DNA of 10,219 bases from a virus: UHGV virus genome UHGV-0130837; one strand, given 5' to 3'. The translations under genes were made by a program, and so were the position numbers. Below are positions 3,963-10,016 of the stretch, one piece after another. Under the pieces are notes generated by a model. The model worked only from the letters and a program-made list of their open reading frames with translations. It did no database searches and was not told the DNA's origin. The stretch's first letter is position 1; every line of letters begins with the position of its first letter.

Positions 3963-5699
3963 TCACACAATGATGGGATTACTGAAAAAGTCGTCGATAT
4001 CGCCAGAATCATCCTCATAGCCTTCGGAGGCACCGATTGCCATAGCGCCCGCTACAATGCCGTCGATACGCCCGGTACTTTTTTTCTTGGCAAAAATTCG
4101 GTTTTCTTTCTGATCAGCCTCCGTCACTGCTGAAGCCGCATTCCAGCGAAGACAAGGGTTCGTCCTGATGATAATGACACTGTCATCAAGCAACTCTTCA
4201 AACAATTCGATGGAGTGAGGCATCCACAGCCCGGAATCTTTCGCTTTGTAATACCCTTGCCCATGAGGGATTAACGGAACAGAAACAGATGCTTCCTCAA
4301 GCTCCGGCTCAAGATATTTAATGCGATACTGGTCGAAGGCGATGGCCTTGATATCAAACTTCTGAGTCAGATCTGCAATGCGCTGGGCAACAAAGCCGTA
4401 TTTCACTGCTTTGCCAGGTGTGGTGTGGATGTGACCATCTCGCTCCCAGGCGTCATAAGGTACCCGGTCCGTTTTGGCCCGTTCCAGTAACGTATCTTTC
4501 GGGGTCCAGAACTCCACCAGCAACTTACGTTGTTTTGGAAAAAACAACGCCAGTGCCGTCAAATCACGCGATCCGGACAGGTCTAAACCGCCATAGCATT
4601 CCTCACCTTCCAGTTCATCTGGATCAAAGCTCTCCTCACAACCCATCCAGACATCACTGCTCATCCACGGATTAGCCGCGTCAACCCACTGACAGAAGTT
4701 AAGACGTCTGACGATGCTCTCTTTCGATGGCATCCCGCGGGCCTGAGTCACCTGCTCACGAAGATAGCTTTCTTCAAAGGTGTGACCCAGCGAAGGGTTA
4801 GCTTTCTTCCAGCAGGACTCATCCTTGAAAGGATCGTCTCCTTCATCCAGAGAACAAATGAAGGCAAAAAAGCTGTCATCTTCTATCGAACCGGCAGAAA
4901 CCTTTCGGCCGTATTCGTGATAGTCATAGCAGACACTCGTTTTATCGTGCCCACTGTTGGTGATCATGAAAATCAGCGCCTGCCGACGACCTTTGGTACC
5001 GGCACGCATCATTTCAACAACCTGATTGCTTTTATGCTCGTGAACTTCATCAATAAGAGCACAATGCGGTCGCGGGCCGGACTGCCCGTCATCTGAACTG
5101 ATTGGACGAAAGAAGGAACCAGACTGAAGAAAAGCCAGGTTCCATTCCTTCCCGGCACCACCTGATTTCTGAATACGTGCGGAAAGAGCTGGAGACTGAT
5201 CGACCATCGCCACCGCATCACGGAAAAGGACCATTGCCTGGTCTTTCTTCGTGGCAGCGGCATAAACTTCAGCGCGTGCTTCTTTATCCGCAGTGAGACA
5301 GTAAAGCCCTATACCCGCAGACAGAGGGGATTTACCGGATCCCTTCCCGGACTCCACATAGACCATTCGGAACCGGCGAAAACCTCTGGCGTTTTTCCAG
5401 CCAAAAATCGAACCGACGATGAAGCACTGCCATGGCAGCAACACGAAAGGCTCGCCTTCGAAATCACCACCATTGAGCTTCAGAACTTTCGCAAAATAGT
5501 CAATCGAGCGTTGCGCCGCCTCAACATCCCAGTGCAGACCACGGGCATGACATGACTGCAGATCGTTGAGGTGGCGCTGGCATGAGTTACGTATGTCAGG
5601 ACCAGCCAGTTCTTTGCCCGAGGTTACATCCATCGCATATTGGGTTGCTGGATCAACCGAAGAACTTATCGAGCGTGTCCTCTTCGGGGTCTTCGCCAT
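3963..5699 (-). CDS. terL: Terminase large subunit (ATPase plus nuclease)
   Basis: 578 aa. Walker A-like VESGKGSGKS and Asp/Glu-rich C-terminal nuclease region. AGGTG Shine-Dalgarno upstream of ATG 5697-5699. The 5' end overlaps terS by 47 nt. Confidence 0.93.
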   Translation of the reverse strand: MAKTPKRTRSISSSVDPATQYAMDVTSGKELAGPDIRNSCQRHLNDLQSCHARGLHWDVEAAQRSIDYFAKVLKLNGGDFEGEPFVLLPWQCFIVGSIFGWKNARGFRRFRMVYVESGKGSGKSPLSAGIGLYCLTADKEARAEVYAAATKKDQAMVLFRDAVAMVDQSPALSARIQKSGGAGKEWNLAFLQSGSFFRPISSDDGQSGPRPHCALIDEVHEHKSNQVVEMMRAGTKGRRQALIFMITNSGHDKTSVCYDYHEYGRKVSAGSIEDDSFFAFICSLDEGDDPFKDESCWKKANPSLGHTFEESYLREQVTQARGMPSKESIVRRLNFCQWVDAANPWMSSDVWMGCEESFDPDELEGEECYGGLDLSGSRDLTALALFFPKQRKLLVEFWTPKDTLLERAKTDRVPYDAWERDGHIHTTPGKAVKYGFVAQRIADLTQKFDIKAIAFDQYRIKYLEPELEEASVSVPLIPHGQGYYKAKDSGLWMPHSIELFEELLDDSVIIIRTNPCLRWNAASAVTEADQKENRIFAKKKSTGRIDGIVAGAMAIGASEGYEDDSGDIDDFFSNPIIV

Positions 5700-6117
5700 T
5701 CACTTTCACCTTCGTCCTTGCCGCTGGCGTCAGACCGAATTCAACCAGGTAACTTTTAAAACGGCGGTCGGCATCGGCCAGCATCGAAACGGCCGGGTTA
5801 GCTTTGATAAGAAAACCACCCTCGGTCTGGACGGTATAGGTTCTTCCCTCTACTGCGATAGTGTCGCGCAACTGAAGAATATCAGCGTAAATATCGCATA
5901 GCCGTTCAAGGGCTAAGGTGTCGGCAACCGTTAAAACCCCCATCCCGTCAAGGAGAACAGTCAACCTTCCCCAGGCGACCTTTCCCCAGTCGGTCAGGTG
6001 CGCCGGCGGGCTTGGAATTTCTCGCGCCGGAGTCGGTTCTTTATCGTTGAGTTTACGTTTGCCCGGGTTGCCGGAGACCACTTTGAGGTGGGTCGGTTTC
6101 GGGCGTCGTCCTGCCAT
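5653..6117 (-). CDS. terS: Terminase small subunit, P27 family
   Basis: 154 aa. N-terminus MAGRRPKPTHLKVVSGNPGKRK is characteristic of P27-family small terminases. GGGAGG Shine-Dalgarno 5 nt upstream. Immediately upstream of terL. Confidence 0.85.
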   Translation of the reverse strand: MAGRRPKPTHLKVVSGNPGKRKLNDKEPTPAREIPSPPAHLTDWGKVAWGRLTVLLDGMGVLTVADTLALERLCDIYADILQLRDTIAVEGRTYTVQTEGGFLIKANPAVSMLADADRRFKSYLVEFGLTPAARTKVKVNGEDPEEDTLDKFFG

Positions 6118-6234: not shown

Positions 6235-6576
6235 TCATCTGAACCAGTGAGAATTTGGATCAAGCGGAATACCGTTTTCATCGCAGCCGATTACGGTGCC
6301 GCGCTTCTCCATTCGCTGCTTCGTTGAGTCATGGTGCTGCTTACACAGCCCTTGCCAGTTCTTCCGGCTCCAGAAAAGCTTTTGCGCTTTCGCTATTGCC
6401 TGGCTGTCACCAGAGCGCAGAGCCTCTTTCAGTTTGTGCGGGATGATGTGGTCAACCACAGTGGCCGCTGTCACCCTGCCTTGCTCCTGGCACATGACGC
6501 ATAAGGGGTGCGCACGAAGGAATATAAGGCGCTCACGGTCCCATTTGCTGCCGTATATGCGCGGTTCTTTGTTCAT
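6235..6576 (-). CDS. HNH endonuclease (packaging-associated)
   Basis: 113 aa with CVMCQEQGR…VDHIIPH…WQGLCKQHH motif (Cys pairs and His typical of the HNH fold). Located directly upstream of terS, as in HK97-like phages. Confidence 0.88.
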   Translation of the reverse strand: MNKEPRIYGSKWDRERLIFLRAHPLCVMCQEQGRVTAATVVDHIIPHKLKEALRSGDSQAIAKAQKLFWSRKNWQGLCKQHHDSTKQRMEKRGTVIGCDENGIPLDPNSHWFR

Positions 6577-6631
6577 GTTATCGCCCCTTGAGCATTATCA
6601 CAGGCACTCAGTGAATGCCTGCTGTAATGCC

Positions 6632-6877
6632 TTAGCTGGACTGTTCAGCGCTAGTATCGAATAGCGGCAGCGCTTCAGTTGCTTCCTGCACTGCTTTCAT
6701 CGTCTTTGCCACCACTTCAGTCTCTGATGTGACACGGCTGTATTGCTGGATGAATAACTGATACTTGAGCGTACTATCCTGAACAAATTCTACAGCGACC
6801 TTTGCAGCGGCAGTGTCTTAGTTCAGGGTGGAAAGTAGGTTAAGACGAATCTGCTGGGCGTCGGTGATTTCGACCAT
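6632..6877 (-). pseudogene. Small ORF interrupted by an in-frame TAA (19 codons, stop, then 61 more codons in the same frame)
   Basis: ATG 6875-6877 with GAGGT Shine-Dalgarno 5 nt upstream gives MVEITDAQQIRLNLLSTLN, then TAA at 6818-6820. The same frame continues DTAAAKVAVEFVQDSTLKYQLFIQQYSRVTSETEVVAKTMKAVQEATEALPLFDTSAEQSS to TAA at 6632-6634. Verified by hand reverse-complementing. Confidence 0.3.
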
Positions 6878-6942
6878 GTCGTACCTCTATGCGATGTGGG
6901 GAGCATTATCGAAGCCATTCGGCAGAATGGCTCCTGTAATGC

Positions 6943-7143
6943 CTACTGTCGTTCCAGGTGTTCGTAACGTGAAATTGTCTTGCCGTTTGCGTTCATCACG
7001 TAGGCAATCTCTCCCTGCTTCAGGAATACGTTCTGGTCCATTCCAGACACCGCGATACTCTGCTGGTTGGGGTTGAAACCAACGCTCAGGCCACAATGGA
7101 TTTCTTCGCCACCATCTGGTGACATCACTTTTACTGTTAACAT
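6943..7143 (-). CDS. Hypothetical small protein (66 aa)
   Basis: Strong Shine-Dalgarno CAGGAG 7 nt upstream of ATG 7141-7143. The translation is protein-like (MLTVKVMSPDGGEEIHCGLSVGFNPNQQ…). No family recognised. Confidence 0.55.
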   Translation of the reverse strand: MLTVKVMSPDGGEEIHCGLSVGFNPNQQSIAVSGMDQNVFLKQGEIAYVMNANGKTISRYEHLERQ

Positions 7144-7163
7144 GCTTCTTCTCCTGCTTCTGG

Positions 7164-7190
7164 TAATAAAAAGCCCCGCTATTGCGAGGC
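7164..7190 (-). terminator. Putative intrinsic terminator (minus strand), 20 nt upstream of the 66-aa gene
   Basis: Minus-strand hairpin GCCTCGC-AATA-GCGGGGC (7 bp, one G-U pair) followed by TTTTTATT. Confidence 0.35.
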
Positions 7191-7278
7191 ATCACGATTA
7201 AAGGCTTCTACAGGGTGGCGGACAACATTTCTCCTCTATACTGTTAAATCGTCGAACTCAACAGAACAGGTAGAAAAT

Positions 7279-7563
7279 ATGATCGATCATTACTACGTAA
7301 CTCACGCTCAAATCCTGGCGCTGAGAAACGTTGTTGCTTTTATCGTGCAAACGATGCCCGAAGAACAAAAAGAAAATGTCCTTCAGGTTTTGAGAAAATT
7401 TGCTGAAATAGAATTAATGGATGGTATCGACACGCCGCCTACGAGTGATATCACCCCGAAAACAGTTGAAAAGTTAAATAAAGCCTACAAGGCAGTCTTC
7501 AATGACATTATCGATCTTTCAACGCCTGGCAGGGAATCTGCTTCAGCAAGCTACCTGCAATAG
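7279..7563 (+). CDS. Hypothetical protein (94 aa), moron-like cargo gene on the opposite strand
   Basis: ATG 7279-7281 with AGGT 7 nt upstream. Candidate -10 TATACT at 7237-7242. Followed by a hairpin terminator. Hand-counted GC of sampled 60-nt lines is about 40%, against about 57% in a capsid line. Mildly acidic, predicted helical, no signal peptide. No family recognised. Confidence 0.6.
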   Translation: MIDHYYVTHAQILALRNVVAFIVQTMPEEQKENVLQVLRKFAEIELMDGIDTPPTSDITPKTVEKLNKAYKAVFNDIIDLSTPGRESASASYLQ

Positions 7564-7585
7564 TTCTCGACCTTATCTCCATGAT

Positions 7586-7617
7586 GGCCAGAACGTTCTT
7601 GTCTGGCCCTTTCTCAA
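7586..7617 (+). terminator. Putative intrinsic terminator for the 7279..7563 gene
   Basis: Stem GGCCAGA (7586-7592) / TCTGGCC (7602-7608), 9-nt loop, followed by CTTTCTCAAGTTTG on the plus strand; no U-tract on the minus side. Confidence 0.4.
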
Positions 7618-7653
7618 GTTTGCTCAGTCGAAATTCAATATTCTTTGCCTTGA

Positions 7654-7884
7654 TCATCGCGTAACCCTGCCGGTTGGTTGCGGGCAGTTAGCCTGCACTG
7701 ATTTGTTGTGCGCCAGAATGTCGCGCTTCGTCTGCTTATCCAGCACATCGATATCGTGGTCAGTAAGGTAGATGATCCGCACCCAGCTGCACGCGGTATC
7801 AACCACCACCGGGGCGGGTAAACTTTTCGCGCAGCTCGCGATCAACATCGTCATCGCCCATACGCTTAACGCTCTCTTCAACAT
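7654..7884 (-). CDS. Outer-membrane spanin lipoprotein (o-spanin, Rz1-like), overlapped architecture
   Basis: Begins at Met54 of the 129-aa ORF: MLKRALSVWAMTMLIASC… is a lipoprotein signal peptide with lipobox IASC. The mature part is short, Pro-containing, with extra Cys. AAAGGGG Shine-Dalgarno 6 nt upstream. Starts inside the i-spanin gene in another frame and extends beyond it. Confidence 0.6.
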   Translation of the reverse strand: MLKRALSVWAMTMLIASCAKSLPAPVVVDTACSWVRIIYLTDHDIDVLDKQTKRDILAHNKSVQANCPQPTGRVTR

Positions 7885-8080
7885 CGCTGGCCCCTTTCGT
7901 GGCTTCTGCTTTACGTTCTGCCGCGGCGACGCTGGCGGCCGCCTTCTCTTCGGTGCGCTGCCGGCTGGCTTTCGCTTCTGCTTTACTGGTGCCTCGCGCA
8001 TGGCCAATGCCGAACGCGCCAGCAATAGCGCCCAGAATGACAACCACCAGCCCCGCGATAGCTTCTATTCCCATGATCAT
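7799..8080 (-). CDS. Inner-membrane spanin (i-spanin, Rz-like)
   Basis: 93 aa. N-terminal TM helix (IEAIAGLVVVILGAIAGAFGIG) followed by an Ala/Glu/Lys-rich helical region. Start overlaps the endolysin stop (ATGA). Caveats: shorter than typical Rz, and the charge distribution around the TM is atypical. Confidence 0.5.
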   Translation of the reverse strand: MIMGIEAIAGLVVVILGAIAGAFGIGHARGTSKAEAKASRQRTEEKAAASVAAAERKAEATKGASDVEESVKRMGDDDVDRELREKFTRPGGG

Positions 8081-8706
8081 CCCACCAGTACCGATTTTGC
8101 TTTCAGGAATCGGGCGCGTCGGTCATCAATGCCGTTCTGCCCGCCGTTGATAATCTGGGTCACGCGCACTAAATCTCCGTGGTATTTCAAACATCCGTTT
8201 GAGGTGTAAAACCAGGCTGCGCTGCGGGCCGCATTAATATATTTCTCCAACAACTCAGGGTTGCTGACTAAATCCAGTTTCAGTGCATTACCGCACTTCA
8301 TATAATTTTCGAGGAAGGTGATCCCGATAATTCCACGCCCGCGGTATTTCCAGCCATCGCCCGCAGCCTTATTGCCAAAACGATTGTTGTAGACGAGATT
8401 AGCGATCGCTCGTTGACGTTCGATCGGTAAAACCTTTTCGTAAGTTTTACGCCCCAGGGTGTTCGCCTGGTCCTGCGTGATGCGCTTTGCCTTCACAAAA
8501 CCAGCCAGGCCGGCAACGCTATAGTTAAAACTTTCGACCATCTGGGTAAATGACGTGCTTTCGTGTCCACACTGCGCTATGAACATCGCCTGATCGAGTG
8601 GAGCTGTAATGCCGAATTCTTTCATCGCAGCATCAATATGCGGAAACCAGCGCGCAGCTAACCCGGCGCTGATACCAGCCGCCCTTTGAAATTGTGATTG
8701 GTTCAT
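8077..8706 (-). CDS. Endolysin, glycoside hydrolase family 19 (chitinase-like) type
   Basis: 209 aa; sequence …FIAQCGHESTSFTQMVESFNYS…NNRFGNKAAGDGWKYRGRGIIGITFLENY… matches GH19-type phage lysins. No signal peptide. Start overlaps the upstream membrane-protein stop (TGATG). Confidence 0.88.
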   Translation of the reverse strand: MNQSQFQRAAGISAGLAARWFPHIDAAMKEFGITAPLDQAMFIAQCGHESTSFTQMVESFNYSVAGLAGFVKAKRITQDQANTLGRKTYEKVLPIERQRAIANLVYNNRFGNKAAGDGWKYRGRGIIGITFLENYMKCGNALKLDLVSNPELLEKYINAARSAAWFYTSNGCLKYHGDLVRVTQIINGGQNGIDDRRARFLKAKSVLVG

Positions 8707-8984
8707 CAGTGCCTCAGTGCATCAACCAGTCGCGCCACATTCCCCCTGAACCAGAGAACCGCGCCGCAGATAAGAATGTTAGCCAGCACCACCAGCCAGT
8801 GGGATGACTCGTACAGGCCAAACAGGAAACGGAAAGGGATGCTGGCATAAACCAGCACCATGAGATAAGCCAGAACGGATATGCCCGGACGGTGTCTCGC
8901 ACTACCTCGTTGGTAGAACATCAATGCCAGCACAATGACGGCGCAAATGACTGCATTGGCCAGCGCTGAAGGATCATTTACCAC
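8706..8984 (-). CDS. Holin/antiholin-like small membrane protein (about 3 TM segments)
   Basis: 92 aa, three hydrophobic segments, immediately upstream of and translationally coupled to the endolysin. Confidence 0.6.
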   Translation of the reverse strand: MVNDPSALANAVICAVIVLALMFYQRGSARHRPGISVLAYLMVLVYASIPFRFLFGLYESSHWLVVLANILICGAVLWFRGNVARLVDALRH

Positions 8985-9363
8985 TTGAACCTCCTCCCCG
9001 GAACCGGGTCAGCATATTGAACAAGCTATTTAGATCCTGGCTGTTGAGAAACGTCAGAACTTTGATGATAAGCGCTGATATTAATACGGCTCCCAACGCA
9101 TCAAGCGGACGGTCGCTGTAGCCAGTCCAGCTTGAAAGCTTGGAACCCACCAGACCGGCGCCCAGAACACCAACAATGAATGACGTCATAAAGTATGCCA
9201 CCAGCTTACCGCGCGATATGTTAGCTGCCGTGGCCACGTAAAAAACCGCCCCGGCGAACGCACCAAATACCACGCCGTAATCTATTCCGGTAGCCAGACC
9301 GAACATGCTAGCCCCCATCAGGCCGCCGGCCGCAACTGAAGTACCAGAGACAGGATCGGACAT
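8974..9363 (-). CDS. Putative holin (multi-TM small membrane protein with charged C-terminus)
   Basis: 129 aa with several Gly/Ala-rich hydrophobic helices and a basic C-terminal tail. First gene of the lysis cassette. AGAGGGGG Shine-Dalgarno upstream. Confidence 0.6.
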   Translation of the reverse strand: MSDPVSGTSVAAGGLMGASMFGLATGIDYGVVFGAFAGAVFYVATAANISRGKLVAYFMTSFIVGVLGAGLVGSKLSSWTGYSDRPLDALGAVLISALIIKVLTFLNSQDLNSLFNMLTRFRGGGSSGK

Positions 9364-9408
9364 TTAGCCCCCTCTATTGCTGTGGATCCTCTCAGAACGA
9401 GGGGAAAA

Positions 9409-9422
9409 TAGGATGGCCGCCA
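9409..9422 (+). repeat. 14-bp direct repeat copy 1 (TAGGATGGCCGCCA)
   Basis: Identical 14-mer at 9409-9422 and 10022-10035; the pair brackets the plus-strand gene 9606..10016 and its upstream region. Confidence 0.5.
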
Positions 9423-9605
9423 TGTGACAGCCACCAAAAATCACTGTAAAAATATCAGGATTCACCACCCTCTCAGACGGATTTATTCTTCTTGTTCAGT
9501 CTCGTCCGCGTACGAAGCCAAGGATGTATCCAAGACCAAAACAAGAAAAACCGAATCCCACCACGGGTAATACTGAATAAATAAAATCAGGCATAGGGAA
9601 ATCTC

Positions 9606-10016
9606 ATGGAAATTATTTCAGTAATCGGAGTGATACTGACACTGCTAGGGCTCTTTATTCCGTCACTAATCAGTAACCATTCGTCACGTAAGGCAGAGTT
9701 CAGGAAGCATTCCGCACCACTGCTGGGAAAGTTGCTAAGCGAAATTGAGGCTATTGAAGGAGGCTCTTATCCATTCAGGCTTATCAGCGATGCTGATTTC
9801 AACCAGTTGCTACCTTACGCCCCGAGGCGCAGGAAAAACGCTCTCCTTGATGCTTACACCAGTTATCTCGACGCTCATACGATGGCCACCACGAAGCACT
9901 GGCACGATGAACATCCATCCGATGGAATGCTATTTTTCCCGACGGGTTTCTCAGTCACTAATTCAGATGAGGTACTGAAGAAAATGCAACCTCTGAAAAA
10001 AGAACTCAGCAGATAG
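9606..10016 (+). CDS. Hypothetical membrane-anchored protein (136 aa), moron-like cargo gene
   Basis: ATG 9606-9608 with AGGGA 6 nt upstream. N-terminal TM helix (IISVIGVILTLLGLFIPSLI) followed by a basic stretch and a soluble domain of about 110 aa. Opposite strand to the late operon. Hand-counted GC of sampled lines is about 38-50%. Candidate -10 TAATACT at 9568-9574. Confidence 0.6.
   Translation: MEIISVIGVILTLLGLFIPSLISNHSSRKAEFRKHSAPLLGKLLSEIEAIEGGSYPFRLISDADFNQLLPYAPRRRKNALLDAYTSYLDAHTMATTKHWHDEHPSDGMLFFPTGFSVTNSDEVLKKMQPLKKELSR

What the first reader, a model, noticed from the sequence alone, without database searches (positions are those of the whole stretch)
7196..7617. Self-contained lower-GC gene (promoter-like -10, ORF, terminator) on the opposite strand between lysis and packaging genes
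The 94-aa ORF 7279..7563 runs opposite to the late operon. It has a TATACT -10 candidate and its own Shine-Dalgarno, is followed by a hairpin with a T-rich tail, and hand-counted GC is about 40% against about 55-57% in the structural genes. This is the bor-equivalent moron slot of lambdoid genomes (between Rz and cos). The protein is small, mildly acidic and helical, with no signal peptide and no family I can recognise. Small acidic prophage cargo proteins are often anti-defence or regulatory factors.
Basis: partly seen in the sequence, partly recalled or inferred. Interest (0 to 1): 0.55.

Follow-up and report, generated by a model that had tools for sequence, protein, structure and literature searches.

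The report
Prophage cargo gene with overlapping antisense partner
This is a real small accessory ("moron") gene of unknown function in a Klebsiella lambda-like prophage, and it travels with a previously unnoticed 49-codon gene that overlaps its end on the other strand; an ordinary kind of feature with one testable twist.

Summary
ORF 7279-7563 (+) is a real gene (dN/dS 0.15-0.3). Its GC is 42%, against 51-55% in the flanking genes. It runs opposite to the late operon, between the spanins and the HNH/terminase genes. It matches PHROG 19753 (unknown function) over its full length. It has no Pfam, NCBIfam, PADLOC, PDB or fold match beyond a generic three-helix bundle. Relatives occur only in Klebsiella, Raoultella, Phytobacter and a few E. 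coli prophages.

A TATACT -10-like element, an AGGT ribosome site and the downstream hairpin are all conserved across the family. No consensus -35 exists.

The gene is not self-contained. A basic 49-aa ORF (7508-7657, minus strand) is start-coupled to the o-spanin stop and overlaps the 3' end of ORF94 by 56 nt. It appears at the same position in almost every lineage, down to 33% identity. The pair has moved as a unit to three different sites in late operons, always with ORF49 in the late-gene direction and ORF94 opposite.

Best reading: a moron expressed in the lysogen and silenced by convergent late transcription. It may work as a defence plus self-immunity pair like Listeria TERi, but this is untested. 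Function is unproven. Interest is moderate to low.

The parts
7163..7190 (-). Intrinsic terminator on the late-operon strand (GCCUCGC-AAUA-GCGGGGC followed by UUUUUAUUAC), just beyond the ORF94 promoter region
   Evidence: Terminator scan. Folds at -13.2 kcal/mol, z = -3.3. The same sequence is found in L003, L009, L100 and L104. Terminators of different sequence occupy the same position in L017 and L099.
7215..7242 (+). Promoter-like region: -35-like GTGGCG (7215-7220), 16-nt spacer, -10-like TATACT (7237-7242)
   Evidence: Read from the sequence. The TGGC and ATA cores are conserved in nearly all upstream variants (not in the deletion variant L074). L099 has TTGGCA and TAATAT at the same place. 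It is below the threshold of the consensus scan.
7268..7271 (+). Weak Shine-Dalgarno AGGT, 7 nt before the start codon
   Evidence: Sequence. CAGG is conserved in nearly all variants.
7279..7563 (+). ORF94: acidic 94-aa cytoplasmic three-helix-bundle protein of PHROG 19753, with a conserved LP(E/D)EQK motif and a disordered tail ending in [YFT][LM]Q
   Evidence: E = 2e-61, full length; small family; alignment; AF2 pLDDT 80.6; dN/dS 0.15-0.31; GC 42%, pI 5.0.
7586..7622 (+). Conserved hairpin (7586-7592 / 7602-7608) with a pyrimidine-rich tail, 22 nt after the ORF94 stop; a probable weak terminator of the ORF94 transcript
   Evidence: Present in all 23 distinct downstream variants. L017 has two compensated pairs plus a G-U pair that is valid only on the plus-strand RNA. 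It is retained in the L013 clade, where ORF49 has decayed.
7508..7657 (-). ORF49: basic 49-aa helical-hairpin protein. Its ATG overlaps the o-spanin stop (ATGA at 7654-7657) and its 3' end overlaps ORF94 by 56 nt
   Evidence: same position, 48-49 aa, in lineages whose ORF94 is only 33-35% identical. (variable sites by codon position 11/10/20; only this minus-strand frame is open in every lineage that keeps ORF49; 7 stops in the L013 clade). (pN/pS 0.3-0.8). (AF2 pLDDT 86.8). (pI 10.1).
7654..7854 (-). Context: o-spanin (lipobox LIASC), the last gene of the lysis cassette. Its 3' end travels with the module in several loci
   Evidence: PHROG 1275 Rz-like spanin. ORF and translation. A remnant of the spanin 3' end sits next to the module in L003.

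Best explanation
ORF94 is the cargo gene of a mobile moron cassette embedded in the late operon of a Klebsiella lambda-like prophage. I give three layers with separate probabilities; the overall confidence figure refers to the whole chain including layer 3.

(1) Shown, about 0.85. It is a real protein-coding gene with its own conserved -10-like element, ribosome site and hairpin. It has foreign (low) GC, is present or absent among related prophages, and always points against the late genes.

(2) Inferred, about 0.5. It is transcribed from its weak promoter while the late operon is silent, that is, in the lysogen. After induction, Q-antiterminated late transcription runs antisense through the whole gene. 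This shuts ORF94 off by transcriptional interference and antisense pairing. The same transcription translates the overlapping, start-coupled ORF49, so the two products appear in opposite phases of the phage life cycle.

(3) Committed guess, about 0.25-0.3. ORF94 has no catalytic motif, an acidic three-helix bundle and a conserved C-terminal tail motif. It therefore probably acts by binding another protein. The most likely role is a lysogen-expressed inhibitor of a late step of competing phages. The basic ORF49 would then be the late-expressed antidote that spares the prophage's own lytic cycle. This is the logic shown experimentally for TerI and anti-TerI2 of Listeria phage phi10403S.
For: Gene reality:
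- dN/dS is 0.15-0.31.
- Full-length conservation holds down to 33% identity.
- The AF2 model is confident.

Moron features:
- GC is 42% against 51-55% in the flanks.
- The cassette is absent from related phages and replaced by other cargo in the same slot.
- The same cassette is found after the spanins (window, L001, L003, L009, L104), between Q/tR' and the holin (L099, L101), and between the tail-terminator and major-tail genes (L017).
- The lysis and terminase modules around it differ between loci.

Expression signals:
- The -10-like and TGGC cores are conserved.
- The hairpin is conserved, with compensatory changes, and is kept where ORF49 is dead.

Partner gene:
- ORF49 sits at the same position in every clade but one.
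- It shows a third-codon-position excess of variable sites and a single open frame.
- Its start overlaps the o-spanin stop as ATGA.
- In L099 and L101 it follows a minus-strand terminator by about 15 nt. No room is left for a promoter of its own, so it can only be read by antiterminated late transcription.
- Charges are complementary in all clades: ORF94 pI 4.2-5.6, ORF49 pI 9.5-10.8.

Precedent: in Listeria, terI is a 65-aa gene on the strand opposite a lytic module and is transcribed in lysogeny. It overlaps its complementary gene anti-terI2, whose product binds TerI, and there is an additional antisense silencing effect (bioRxiv 10.1101/2025.02.27.640495).
Against: - No transcript data are available.
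- The promoter fails a consensus scan and has only a 3/6 -35.
- The hairpin has a weak U-tract and was not flagged as a terminator.
- The hairpin arms coincide with the conserved GPD and LA codons of ORF49. RNA-level and protein-level selection therefore cannot be separated, except in the L013 clade.
- In the 55%-identity clade (L013-L016, L088-L098) ORF49 has decayed while ORF94 is intact. ORF49 is therefore not an obligatory antidote.
- The pN/pS signal for ORF49 is weak, at 0.3-0.8.
- There is no sequence or fold link to any defence, anti-defence or regulatory family.
- A heteromer prediction could not be run.
Confidence: 0.35

Rival explanations
1. Anti-defence cargo. ORF94, ORF49 or both inhibit a host immune system, for example as a sponge, a DNA mimic or a protein inhibitor, rather than excluding other phages.
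For: ORF94 is small, acidic and non-enzymatic. In E. coli prophages with similar gene content, the slot coupled to the same o-spanin stop holds an Acb2/Tad1-domain protein or DUF7681.
Against: ORF94 points against the late operon and lies far from the early genes, so it would be poorly expressed at the start of an infection, when anti-defence is needed. It shows no similarity to the Acb2/Tad1 protein of that slot or to any known family. Net charge in this window is only -4.
Confidence: 0.15
2. Host-directed lysogenic-conversion or regulatory factor. ORF94 binds a host protein and changes host physiology or fitness. ORF49 is an unrelated late-operon cargo gene that merely abuts it.
For: The position and orientation match lambda bor and other lysogen-expressed morons (established knowledge). 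Neighbouring slots in relatives carry host-directed cargo such as GnsAB, YnfU and TonB_C-like genes. ORF94 persists without ORF49 in one clade.
Against: The exact 56-nt overlap and co-transfer of the two ORFs to three different insertion sites, down to 33% identity, would be odd for unrelated genes. ORF94 is cytoplasmic with no envelope-targeting signal, unlike Bor, Lom or Cor.
Confidence: 0.2
3. ORF49 is not a gene. The region 7564-7657 is only the 3' UTR and terminator of ORF94, and the antisense reading frame is kept open by chance or by RNA-structure constraints.
For: The most conserved ORF49 codons (LEKGPD, LA) are exactly the hairpin arms and the tail. pN/pS is only 0.3-0.8. ORF49 matches no family.
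Against: The ATG, the length (48-49 codons) and the stop position are kept in lineages with very low nucleotide identity. It is the only minus-strand frame open in all of them: the other two frames carry 3-8 stops in most lineages, although one of them is also nearly open in L099 and L101. The ORF49 frame collapses (7 stops, no ATG) in the one clade where it is lost, although the hairpin stays. Variable sites show a third-position excess of 11/10/20. It has an ATGA start-stop overlap here and a GAGGA ribosome site in L017. The AF2 helical hairpin is confident.
Confidence: 0.2
4. ORF94 is a spurious antisense ORF, or a conserved structural or assembly gene of the phage.
For: None beyond its location among late genes.
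Against: Purifying selection. It runs opposite to every late gene, is absent from related phages, and has no structural-protein homology.
Confidence: 0.03

Closest known systems
Morons of lambdoid phages (the concept of Juhala/Hendrix et al.; for example lambda bor between Rz and cos)
   Same: An extra gene in the lysis-to-packaging gap, on the strand opposite the late operon. It has deviating base composition and its own promoter-like and terminator-like elements, and it is present or absent among relatives.
   Different: It is not homologous to Bor: there is no lipobox and no Pfam hit. The product is cytoplasmic. The cassette carries a second, convergent, overlapping ORF plus a terminator on the late strand.
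TERi system of Listeria phage phi10403S (TerI with anti-TerI1 and anti-TerI2; bioRxiv 10.1101/2025.02.27.640495)
   Same: A small protein gene on the strand opposite a lytic operon, overlapping a gene on the complementary strand that belongs to that operon. The locus is a variable hotspot. The opposite timing of expression would give defence plus self-immunity.
   Different: The host and phage lineage differ. No sequence relation was tested. The location is the late rather than the early module. The overlap is only 56 nt at the 3' ends. No functional data exist here. One clade lacks the partner ORF.
PHROG 19753 (unknown function)
   Same: Full-length match, E = 2e-61.
   Different: The family has no annotated function, so membership names the protein but does not explain it.
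Acb2/Tad1-domain genes in the same slot of related E. coli prophages
   Same: They occupy the position coupled to the same o-spanin stop.
   Different: No sequence similarity to ORF94 or ORF49. They are single genes in the late orientation.

Membership tests
Moron (lambdoid accessory cassette) | Present in some and absent from other, otherwise related, phages at the same position | tested here: met
   Ten of 15 phage records match only the spanin side. E. coli relatives carry Acb2/Tad1 or DUF7681 in the slot. The cassette also occurs at two other late-operon sites.
Moron (lambdoid accessory cassette) | Base composition different from the surrounding phage genes | tested here: met
   GC 42.1% against 51-55% here. 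36-42% against 46-52% in the other clades with at least 1.8 kb of flank available.
Moron (lambdoid accessory cassette) | Own promoter | tested here: inconclusive
   A conserved TATACT-type -10 and a TGGC core 16 nt upstream, but no site passes the consensus scan.
Moron (lambdoid accessory cassette) | Own terminator | tested here: inconclusive
   The hairpin is conserved with compensatory changes and is kept where ORF49 is dead. The U-tract is weak and the scan did not flag it. Termination activity cannot be tested here.
Moron (lambdoid accessory cassette) | Expressed from the repressed prophage | not testable with these tools
   Needs RNA-seq or 5'-RACE of the lysogen.
PHROG 19753 | Significant full-length match to the family profile | tested here: met
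   E = 2.1e-61, residues 1-94 against profile positions 1-94.
Lambda Bor lipoprotein family | Pfam Bor-family match and an N-terminal lipoprotein signal with a lipobox cysteine | tested here: not met
   No such Pfam hit at E <= 1. The N-terminus MIDHYYVTHAQ... has no basic n-region or lipobox, and it forms helix 1 of the bundle.
TERi-like defence plus self-immunity pair | Small gene on the strand opposite a lytic operon, overlapping a complementary-strand gene of that operon | tested here: met
   A 56-nt convergent overlap with ORF49, conserved across lineages.
TERi-like defence plus self-immunity pair | Lysogenic transcription, inhibition of phage virion production, and neutralisation by direct binding of the partner | not testable with these tools
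   Functional assays are needed.
TERi-like defence plus self-immunity pair | Sequence homology to TerI or anti-TerI | not tested
   The Listeria sequences were not at hand. None of the libraries searched returned such a hit.
Acb2/Tad1 anti-defence sponges | Sequence similarity to the Acb2/Tad1 domain | tested here: not met
   BLASTP against the E. coli slot occupant gave E = 4.2 for ORF94 and no alignment for ORF49. No Pfam or NCBIfam hit.
Type II toxin-antitoxin module | Co-directional two-gene operon with a recognisable toxin or antitoxin domain | tested here: not met
   The genes are convergent, not co-directional. No toxin-antitoxin domain in Pfam, NCBIfam or PADLOC.

The most novel reading that the evidence does not exclude
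ORF94 and ORF49 form a two-component, life-cycle-gated system of enterobacterial lambdoid prophages. An acidic protein made in the lysogen blocks a late step, such as packaging, lysis or late transcription, of superinfecting phages. A basic 49-aa antidote is encoded antisense to its 3' end and is made only from Q-antiterminated late transcripts. Convergent transcription gives a second, RNA-level off-switch. This would be a Gram-negative counterpart of Listeria TERi, built from unrelated proteins, and a portable cassette that inserts anywhere in a late operon.
Probability: 0.2. Interest if true: 0.7.

Novelty: new member of a known kind. Interest (0 to 1): 0.38.

Why it matters
As it stands, this is one more uncharacterised prophage cargo gene in a clinically important host (Klebsiella pneumoniae and its relatives).

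Its value lies in the architecture. An acidic and a basic pair of small proteins sit on opposite strands with a fixed 56-nt overlap. They move together between three late-operon sites and are oriented so that lysogenic and lytic transcription would express them in alternation.

That gives a concrete, cheap experiment for finding a new prophage-encoded exclusion system with built-in self-immunity. If that fails, the gene is still a candidate anti-defence or host-modulating factor. The case also shows that the ends of small morons can hide unannotated genes: most records do not annotate ORF49.

Tried and rejected
Searches on ORF94 that gave nothing useful:
- Pfam, NCBIfam and PADLOC gave nothing above noise. 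DUF1376 at E = 0.064 and Csx11 at E = 0.07 are chance-level.
- The PDB profile search gave only a short LPxxxK-type match to an engineered uteroglobin, E = 0.002 over 25 residues, judged to be chance.
- Foldseek against PDB and BFVD found no hit with E < 0.9.
- The afdb50 library was unavailable.
- Rfam found nothing in 6500-8100 except a sub-threshold STnc450 hit outside the feature.
- Three large protein searches on ORF94 found only 'hypothetical' relatives in a handful of Enterobacteriaceae.
- The species-representative genome scan found a single locus.
- Literature searches for the PHROG identifier and for Klebsiella lambdoid morons found nothing on this family.

Ideas considered from the sequence and dropped:
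- A LexA box: the sequence is CTGT-N16-ACAG, not the required N8.
- A sigma-54 promoter: TGGC is present, but there is no GC at -12.
- An extended -10 TGnTAAATC: it lacks the -7 T.
- An HTH DNA-binding fold for ORF94: the helices are about 20 residues long and form an up-down-up bundle.

Full report
**1. What the window is**

The minus strand carries a lambda-like late operon:
- two holin-type ORFs (8974-9363 and 8706-8984);
- a GH19 endolysin (8077-8706);
- an i-spanin (7799-8080) and an overlapping o-spanin (ending at 7654; lipobox LIASC);
- further on, a 66-aa ORF (6943-7143, PHROG 3909);
- an HNH endonuclease (6235-6576), TerS (5653-6117) and TerL (3963-5699);
- portal, protease and major capsid genes.

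The region is 92-93% identical to Klebsiella pneumoniae prophages such as ST13-OXA48phi12.2 and KpF5. Those records annotate the ORF under study as a hypothetical protein on the opposite strand.

**2. The observation**

ORF 7279-7563 (+) encodes 94 aa.

- *Composition.* GC is 42.1% (GC3 44%). The structural and lysis genes are 51-55%, the spanins 59-60%, and the window mean is 51.1%.
- *Promoter.* TATACT lies at 7237-7242. The best -35 is GTGGCG (3/6) with a 16-nt spacer. The consensus promoter scan finds nothing at its threshold.
- *Ribosome site.* AGGT (7268-7271) lies 7 nt before the ATG.
- *Hairpin.* GGCCAGA-N9-TCTGGCC (7586-7608) folds at -12.6 kcal/mol, z = -2.7, with 0 of 200 shuffles folding as well. 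It is followed by CUUUCUCAAGUUU. Its 9-nt loop and modest T content keep it below the terminator scan's criteria.

**3. It is a real gene**

- Pairwise Nei-Gojobori estimates against four diverged homologues give dN/dS of 0.15-0.31, with synonymous sites near saturation for the 71%-identity clade.
- An exhaustive HMMER search of 1.8 billion representatives finds only 11 relatives, down to 33% identity.
- Word-seeded searches with the sequence and with a profile add only Klebsiella species, Raoultella, Phytobacter and one E. coli protein. All are 'hypothetical'.
- Only one of 185,579 species-representative genomes carries it. Eighty or more IMG/VR viral contigs do.
- The alignment shows a conserved LP(E/D)EQK motif and a variable tail that always ends in [YFT][LM]Q.
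- AlphaFold2 gives a three-helix bundle (helices 4-24, 28-43 and 60-81; mean pLDDT 80.6) with a disordered tail at 86-94.
- The protein is acidic in every clade, with pI 4.2-5.6.

**4. What it is not**

- It matches PHROG 19753 (unknown function) end to end at E = 2e-61.
- It has no significant Pfam, NCBIfam or PADLOC hit.
- It has no meaningful PDB sequence hit.
- It is not a Bor homologue and has no signal peptide or lipobox.
- Rfam finds nothing in the feature.

**5. The missed partner, ORF49**

On the minus strand, ORF 7508-7657 encodes 49 aa. It starts with an ATG that overlaps the o-spanin stop (ATGA at 7654-7657). It ends 56 nt inside ORF94.

An ORF of 48-49 codons, starting at +91 or +94 past the ORF94 stop, is found in the following lineages. 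It ends 52 nt inside ORF94 in L100/L104 and 55 nt inside it in all the others.

| Lineage | ORF94 identity to the window |
|---|---|
| 71% and 68% clades | 71%, 68% |
| 86% clade | 86% |
| L100 / L104 | 43-47% |
| L017, L099 and E. coli L101 | 33-35% |

In the last group the protein reads MQK..(I/C/F)EKRL..IE.GP.... The N-terminal half is recognisably conserved and the nucleotides are largely different.

Evidence that ORF49 is coding:
- Variable sites in the non-overlapping 90 nt fall 11/10/20 by codon position.
- Its frame is the only minus-strand frame that stays open in every lineage that has it.
- In-frame pN/pS is 0.3-0.8, against about 1 in the other frames for the informative pairs.
- In the 55%-identity clade (L013-L016, L088-L098) the frame has lost its ATG and has 7 stops. 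This shows what happens without selection.
- AF2 predicts a helical hairpin with pLDDT 86.8.
- It is basic in every clade, with pI 9.5-10.8.

I rate ORF49 as a real gene at about 0.75-0.8.

**6. The hairpin**

It is present about 22 nt after the ORF94 stop in all 23 distinct downstream variants. L017 has GGGTCAAG/CTTGGCCC. That is two doubly compensated pairs plus one G-U pair, which is a pair only on the plus-strand RNA. The L013 clade, which lacks a functional ORF49, keeps a hairpin at the same place (GGCCAGTAT/ATACCGGCC). This supports an RNA-level role on the ORF94 transcript, independent of ORF49 coding. Its weak U-tract makes it at best a modest intrinsic terminator.

**7. The cassette and its movements**

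*Left boundary.* In the window this is a strong terminator on the late strand (7190-7173 plus a T-run). L017 and L099 carry terminators of unrelated sequence at the equivalent place.

*Upstream region.* The TGGC core of the -35-like element, the ATA core of the -10-like element and a following GT..A.T motif are conserved in nearly all of the 36 distinct upstream sequences. L099 has TTGGCA and TAATAT.

*Insertion sites.* The cassette lies:
- after the spanins, in phages with different lysis and terminase modules;
- between Q/tR' and the holin in L099 and E. coli L101;
- between the tail-terminator and major-tail genes in L017.

In every case ORF49 runs with the late genes and ORF94 runs against them. 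In L099 and L101, ORF49 begins about 15 nt after a minus-strand terminator. It can therefore only be read by antiterminated late transcription.

*The slot in relatives.* E. coli prophages with similar gene content (P27-family TerS, TerL, HNH, DUF2560) and the same o-spanin 3' end carry an Acb2/Tad1-domain gene or a DUF7681 gene coupled to the o-spanin stop. The slot is therefore a variable cargo site. These proteins are unrelated to ORF94 and ORF49.

**8. How it most likely works**

*Shown.* A real, foreign-composition, mobile gene opposed to the late operon, with conserved promoter-like and hairpin elements and a conserved convergent partner ORF.

*Inferred.* ORF94 is expressed when the late operon is off, that is, in the lysogen. 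After induction, late transcription crosses it antisense and produces ORF49.

*Guess.* ORF94 has no catalytic motifs, a small acidic bundle and a conserved C-terminal tail motif. It probably acts by binding a protein. The opposite expression phases, complementary charges and co-mobility suggest an inhibitor plus antidote.

*Precedent.* The experimentally characterised precedent is TERi of Listeria phage phi10403S. There, terI is a 65-aa gene on the strand opposite a lytic module and is transcribed in lysogeny. It overlaps anti-terI2 on the complementary strand. Anti-TerI2 binds TerI and restores packaging, and antisense silencing was also seen (bioRxiv 10.1101/2025.02.27.640495).

*Against an obligatory antidote.* One clade keeps ORF94 without ORF49.

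*Rivals.* These are anti-defence cargo, a host-directed conversion factor, or a non-coding 3' region in place of ORF49. They are scored in the Rival explanations section.

**9. Novelty and verdict**

The feature is a typical moron whose protein family is already catalogued (PHROG 19753) but uncharacterised. It is a new member of a known kind.

The added value is the conserved overlapping partner and the cassette's portability, which give a specific, testable hypothesis. Interest is moderate to low, at 0.38. If the TERi-like reading were confirmed, which I put at about 0.2, interest would be about 0.7.

Noticed in passing
window 9606-10016 (+): A second opposite-strand ORF (136 aa) lies upstream of the holins. 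It has an N-terminal transmembrane helix and GC of 46.5%, in a local GC trough of 43-44% at 9401-9800. It has no Pfam, PHROG, NCBIfam or PADLOC family. It is probably another cargo gene, upstream of the holins where the Q-to-holin slot would be expected (Q itself is outside the window).
   Followed up: partly
window 7163-7190 (-): A strong intrinsic terminator sits on the late-operon strand inside the late operon, between the cassette and orf66. Only antiterminated polymerase should pass it. Terminators of different sequence occupy the equivalent position in L017 and L099.
   Followed up: partly
L107 2220-2504 (-) and L109 2211-2504 (-) (E. coli prophages): In prophages with similar gene content, the slot coupled to the same o-spanin stop holds an Acb2/Tad1-domain protein (94 aa) or a DUF7681 protein, in the late orientation. 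This suggests a hotspot for anti-defence cargo.
   Followed up: partly
window 6577-6942: A 366-nt stretch between HNH and orf66 has no convincing ORF. There is a sub-threshold Rfam hit to sRNA STnc450 at 6606-6666 (-), 20.5 bits, E = 0.19.
   Followed up: no
L074 (IMG/VR contig), upstream of the ORF94 homologue: A deletion joins the 5' end of the orf66 homologue to the ORF94 leader through TTTTACTGTT / TATACTGTT microhomology. It removes the -35 and -10 region, so this copy may be promoterless.
   Followed up: no
window 6943-7143 (-): A 66-aa ORF with a good ribosome site matches PHROG 3909 (unknown function). A 66-aa minus-strand ORF also sits next to the cassette in L100, but it belongs to a different family, PHROG 9518.
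   Followed up: no
window 7552-7563 and family alignment A2: The disordered C-terminal tail of ORF94 varies freely but always ends in [YFT][LM]Q. The ORF49 residues encoded opposite it are not conserved, so selection acts on the ORF94 terminus. This may be a docking or degradation motif.
   Followed up: partly
L003 6230-6520 (-): In the 71% clade the cassette carries a remnant of the o-spanin 3' end fused in frame upstream of ORF49, which gene callers report as a 96-aa ORF. This shows that the recombination boundary lies inside the spanin gene.
   Followed up: partly
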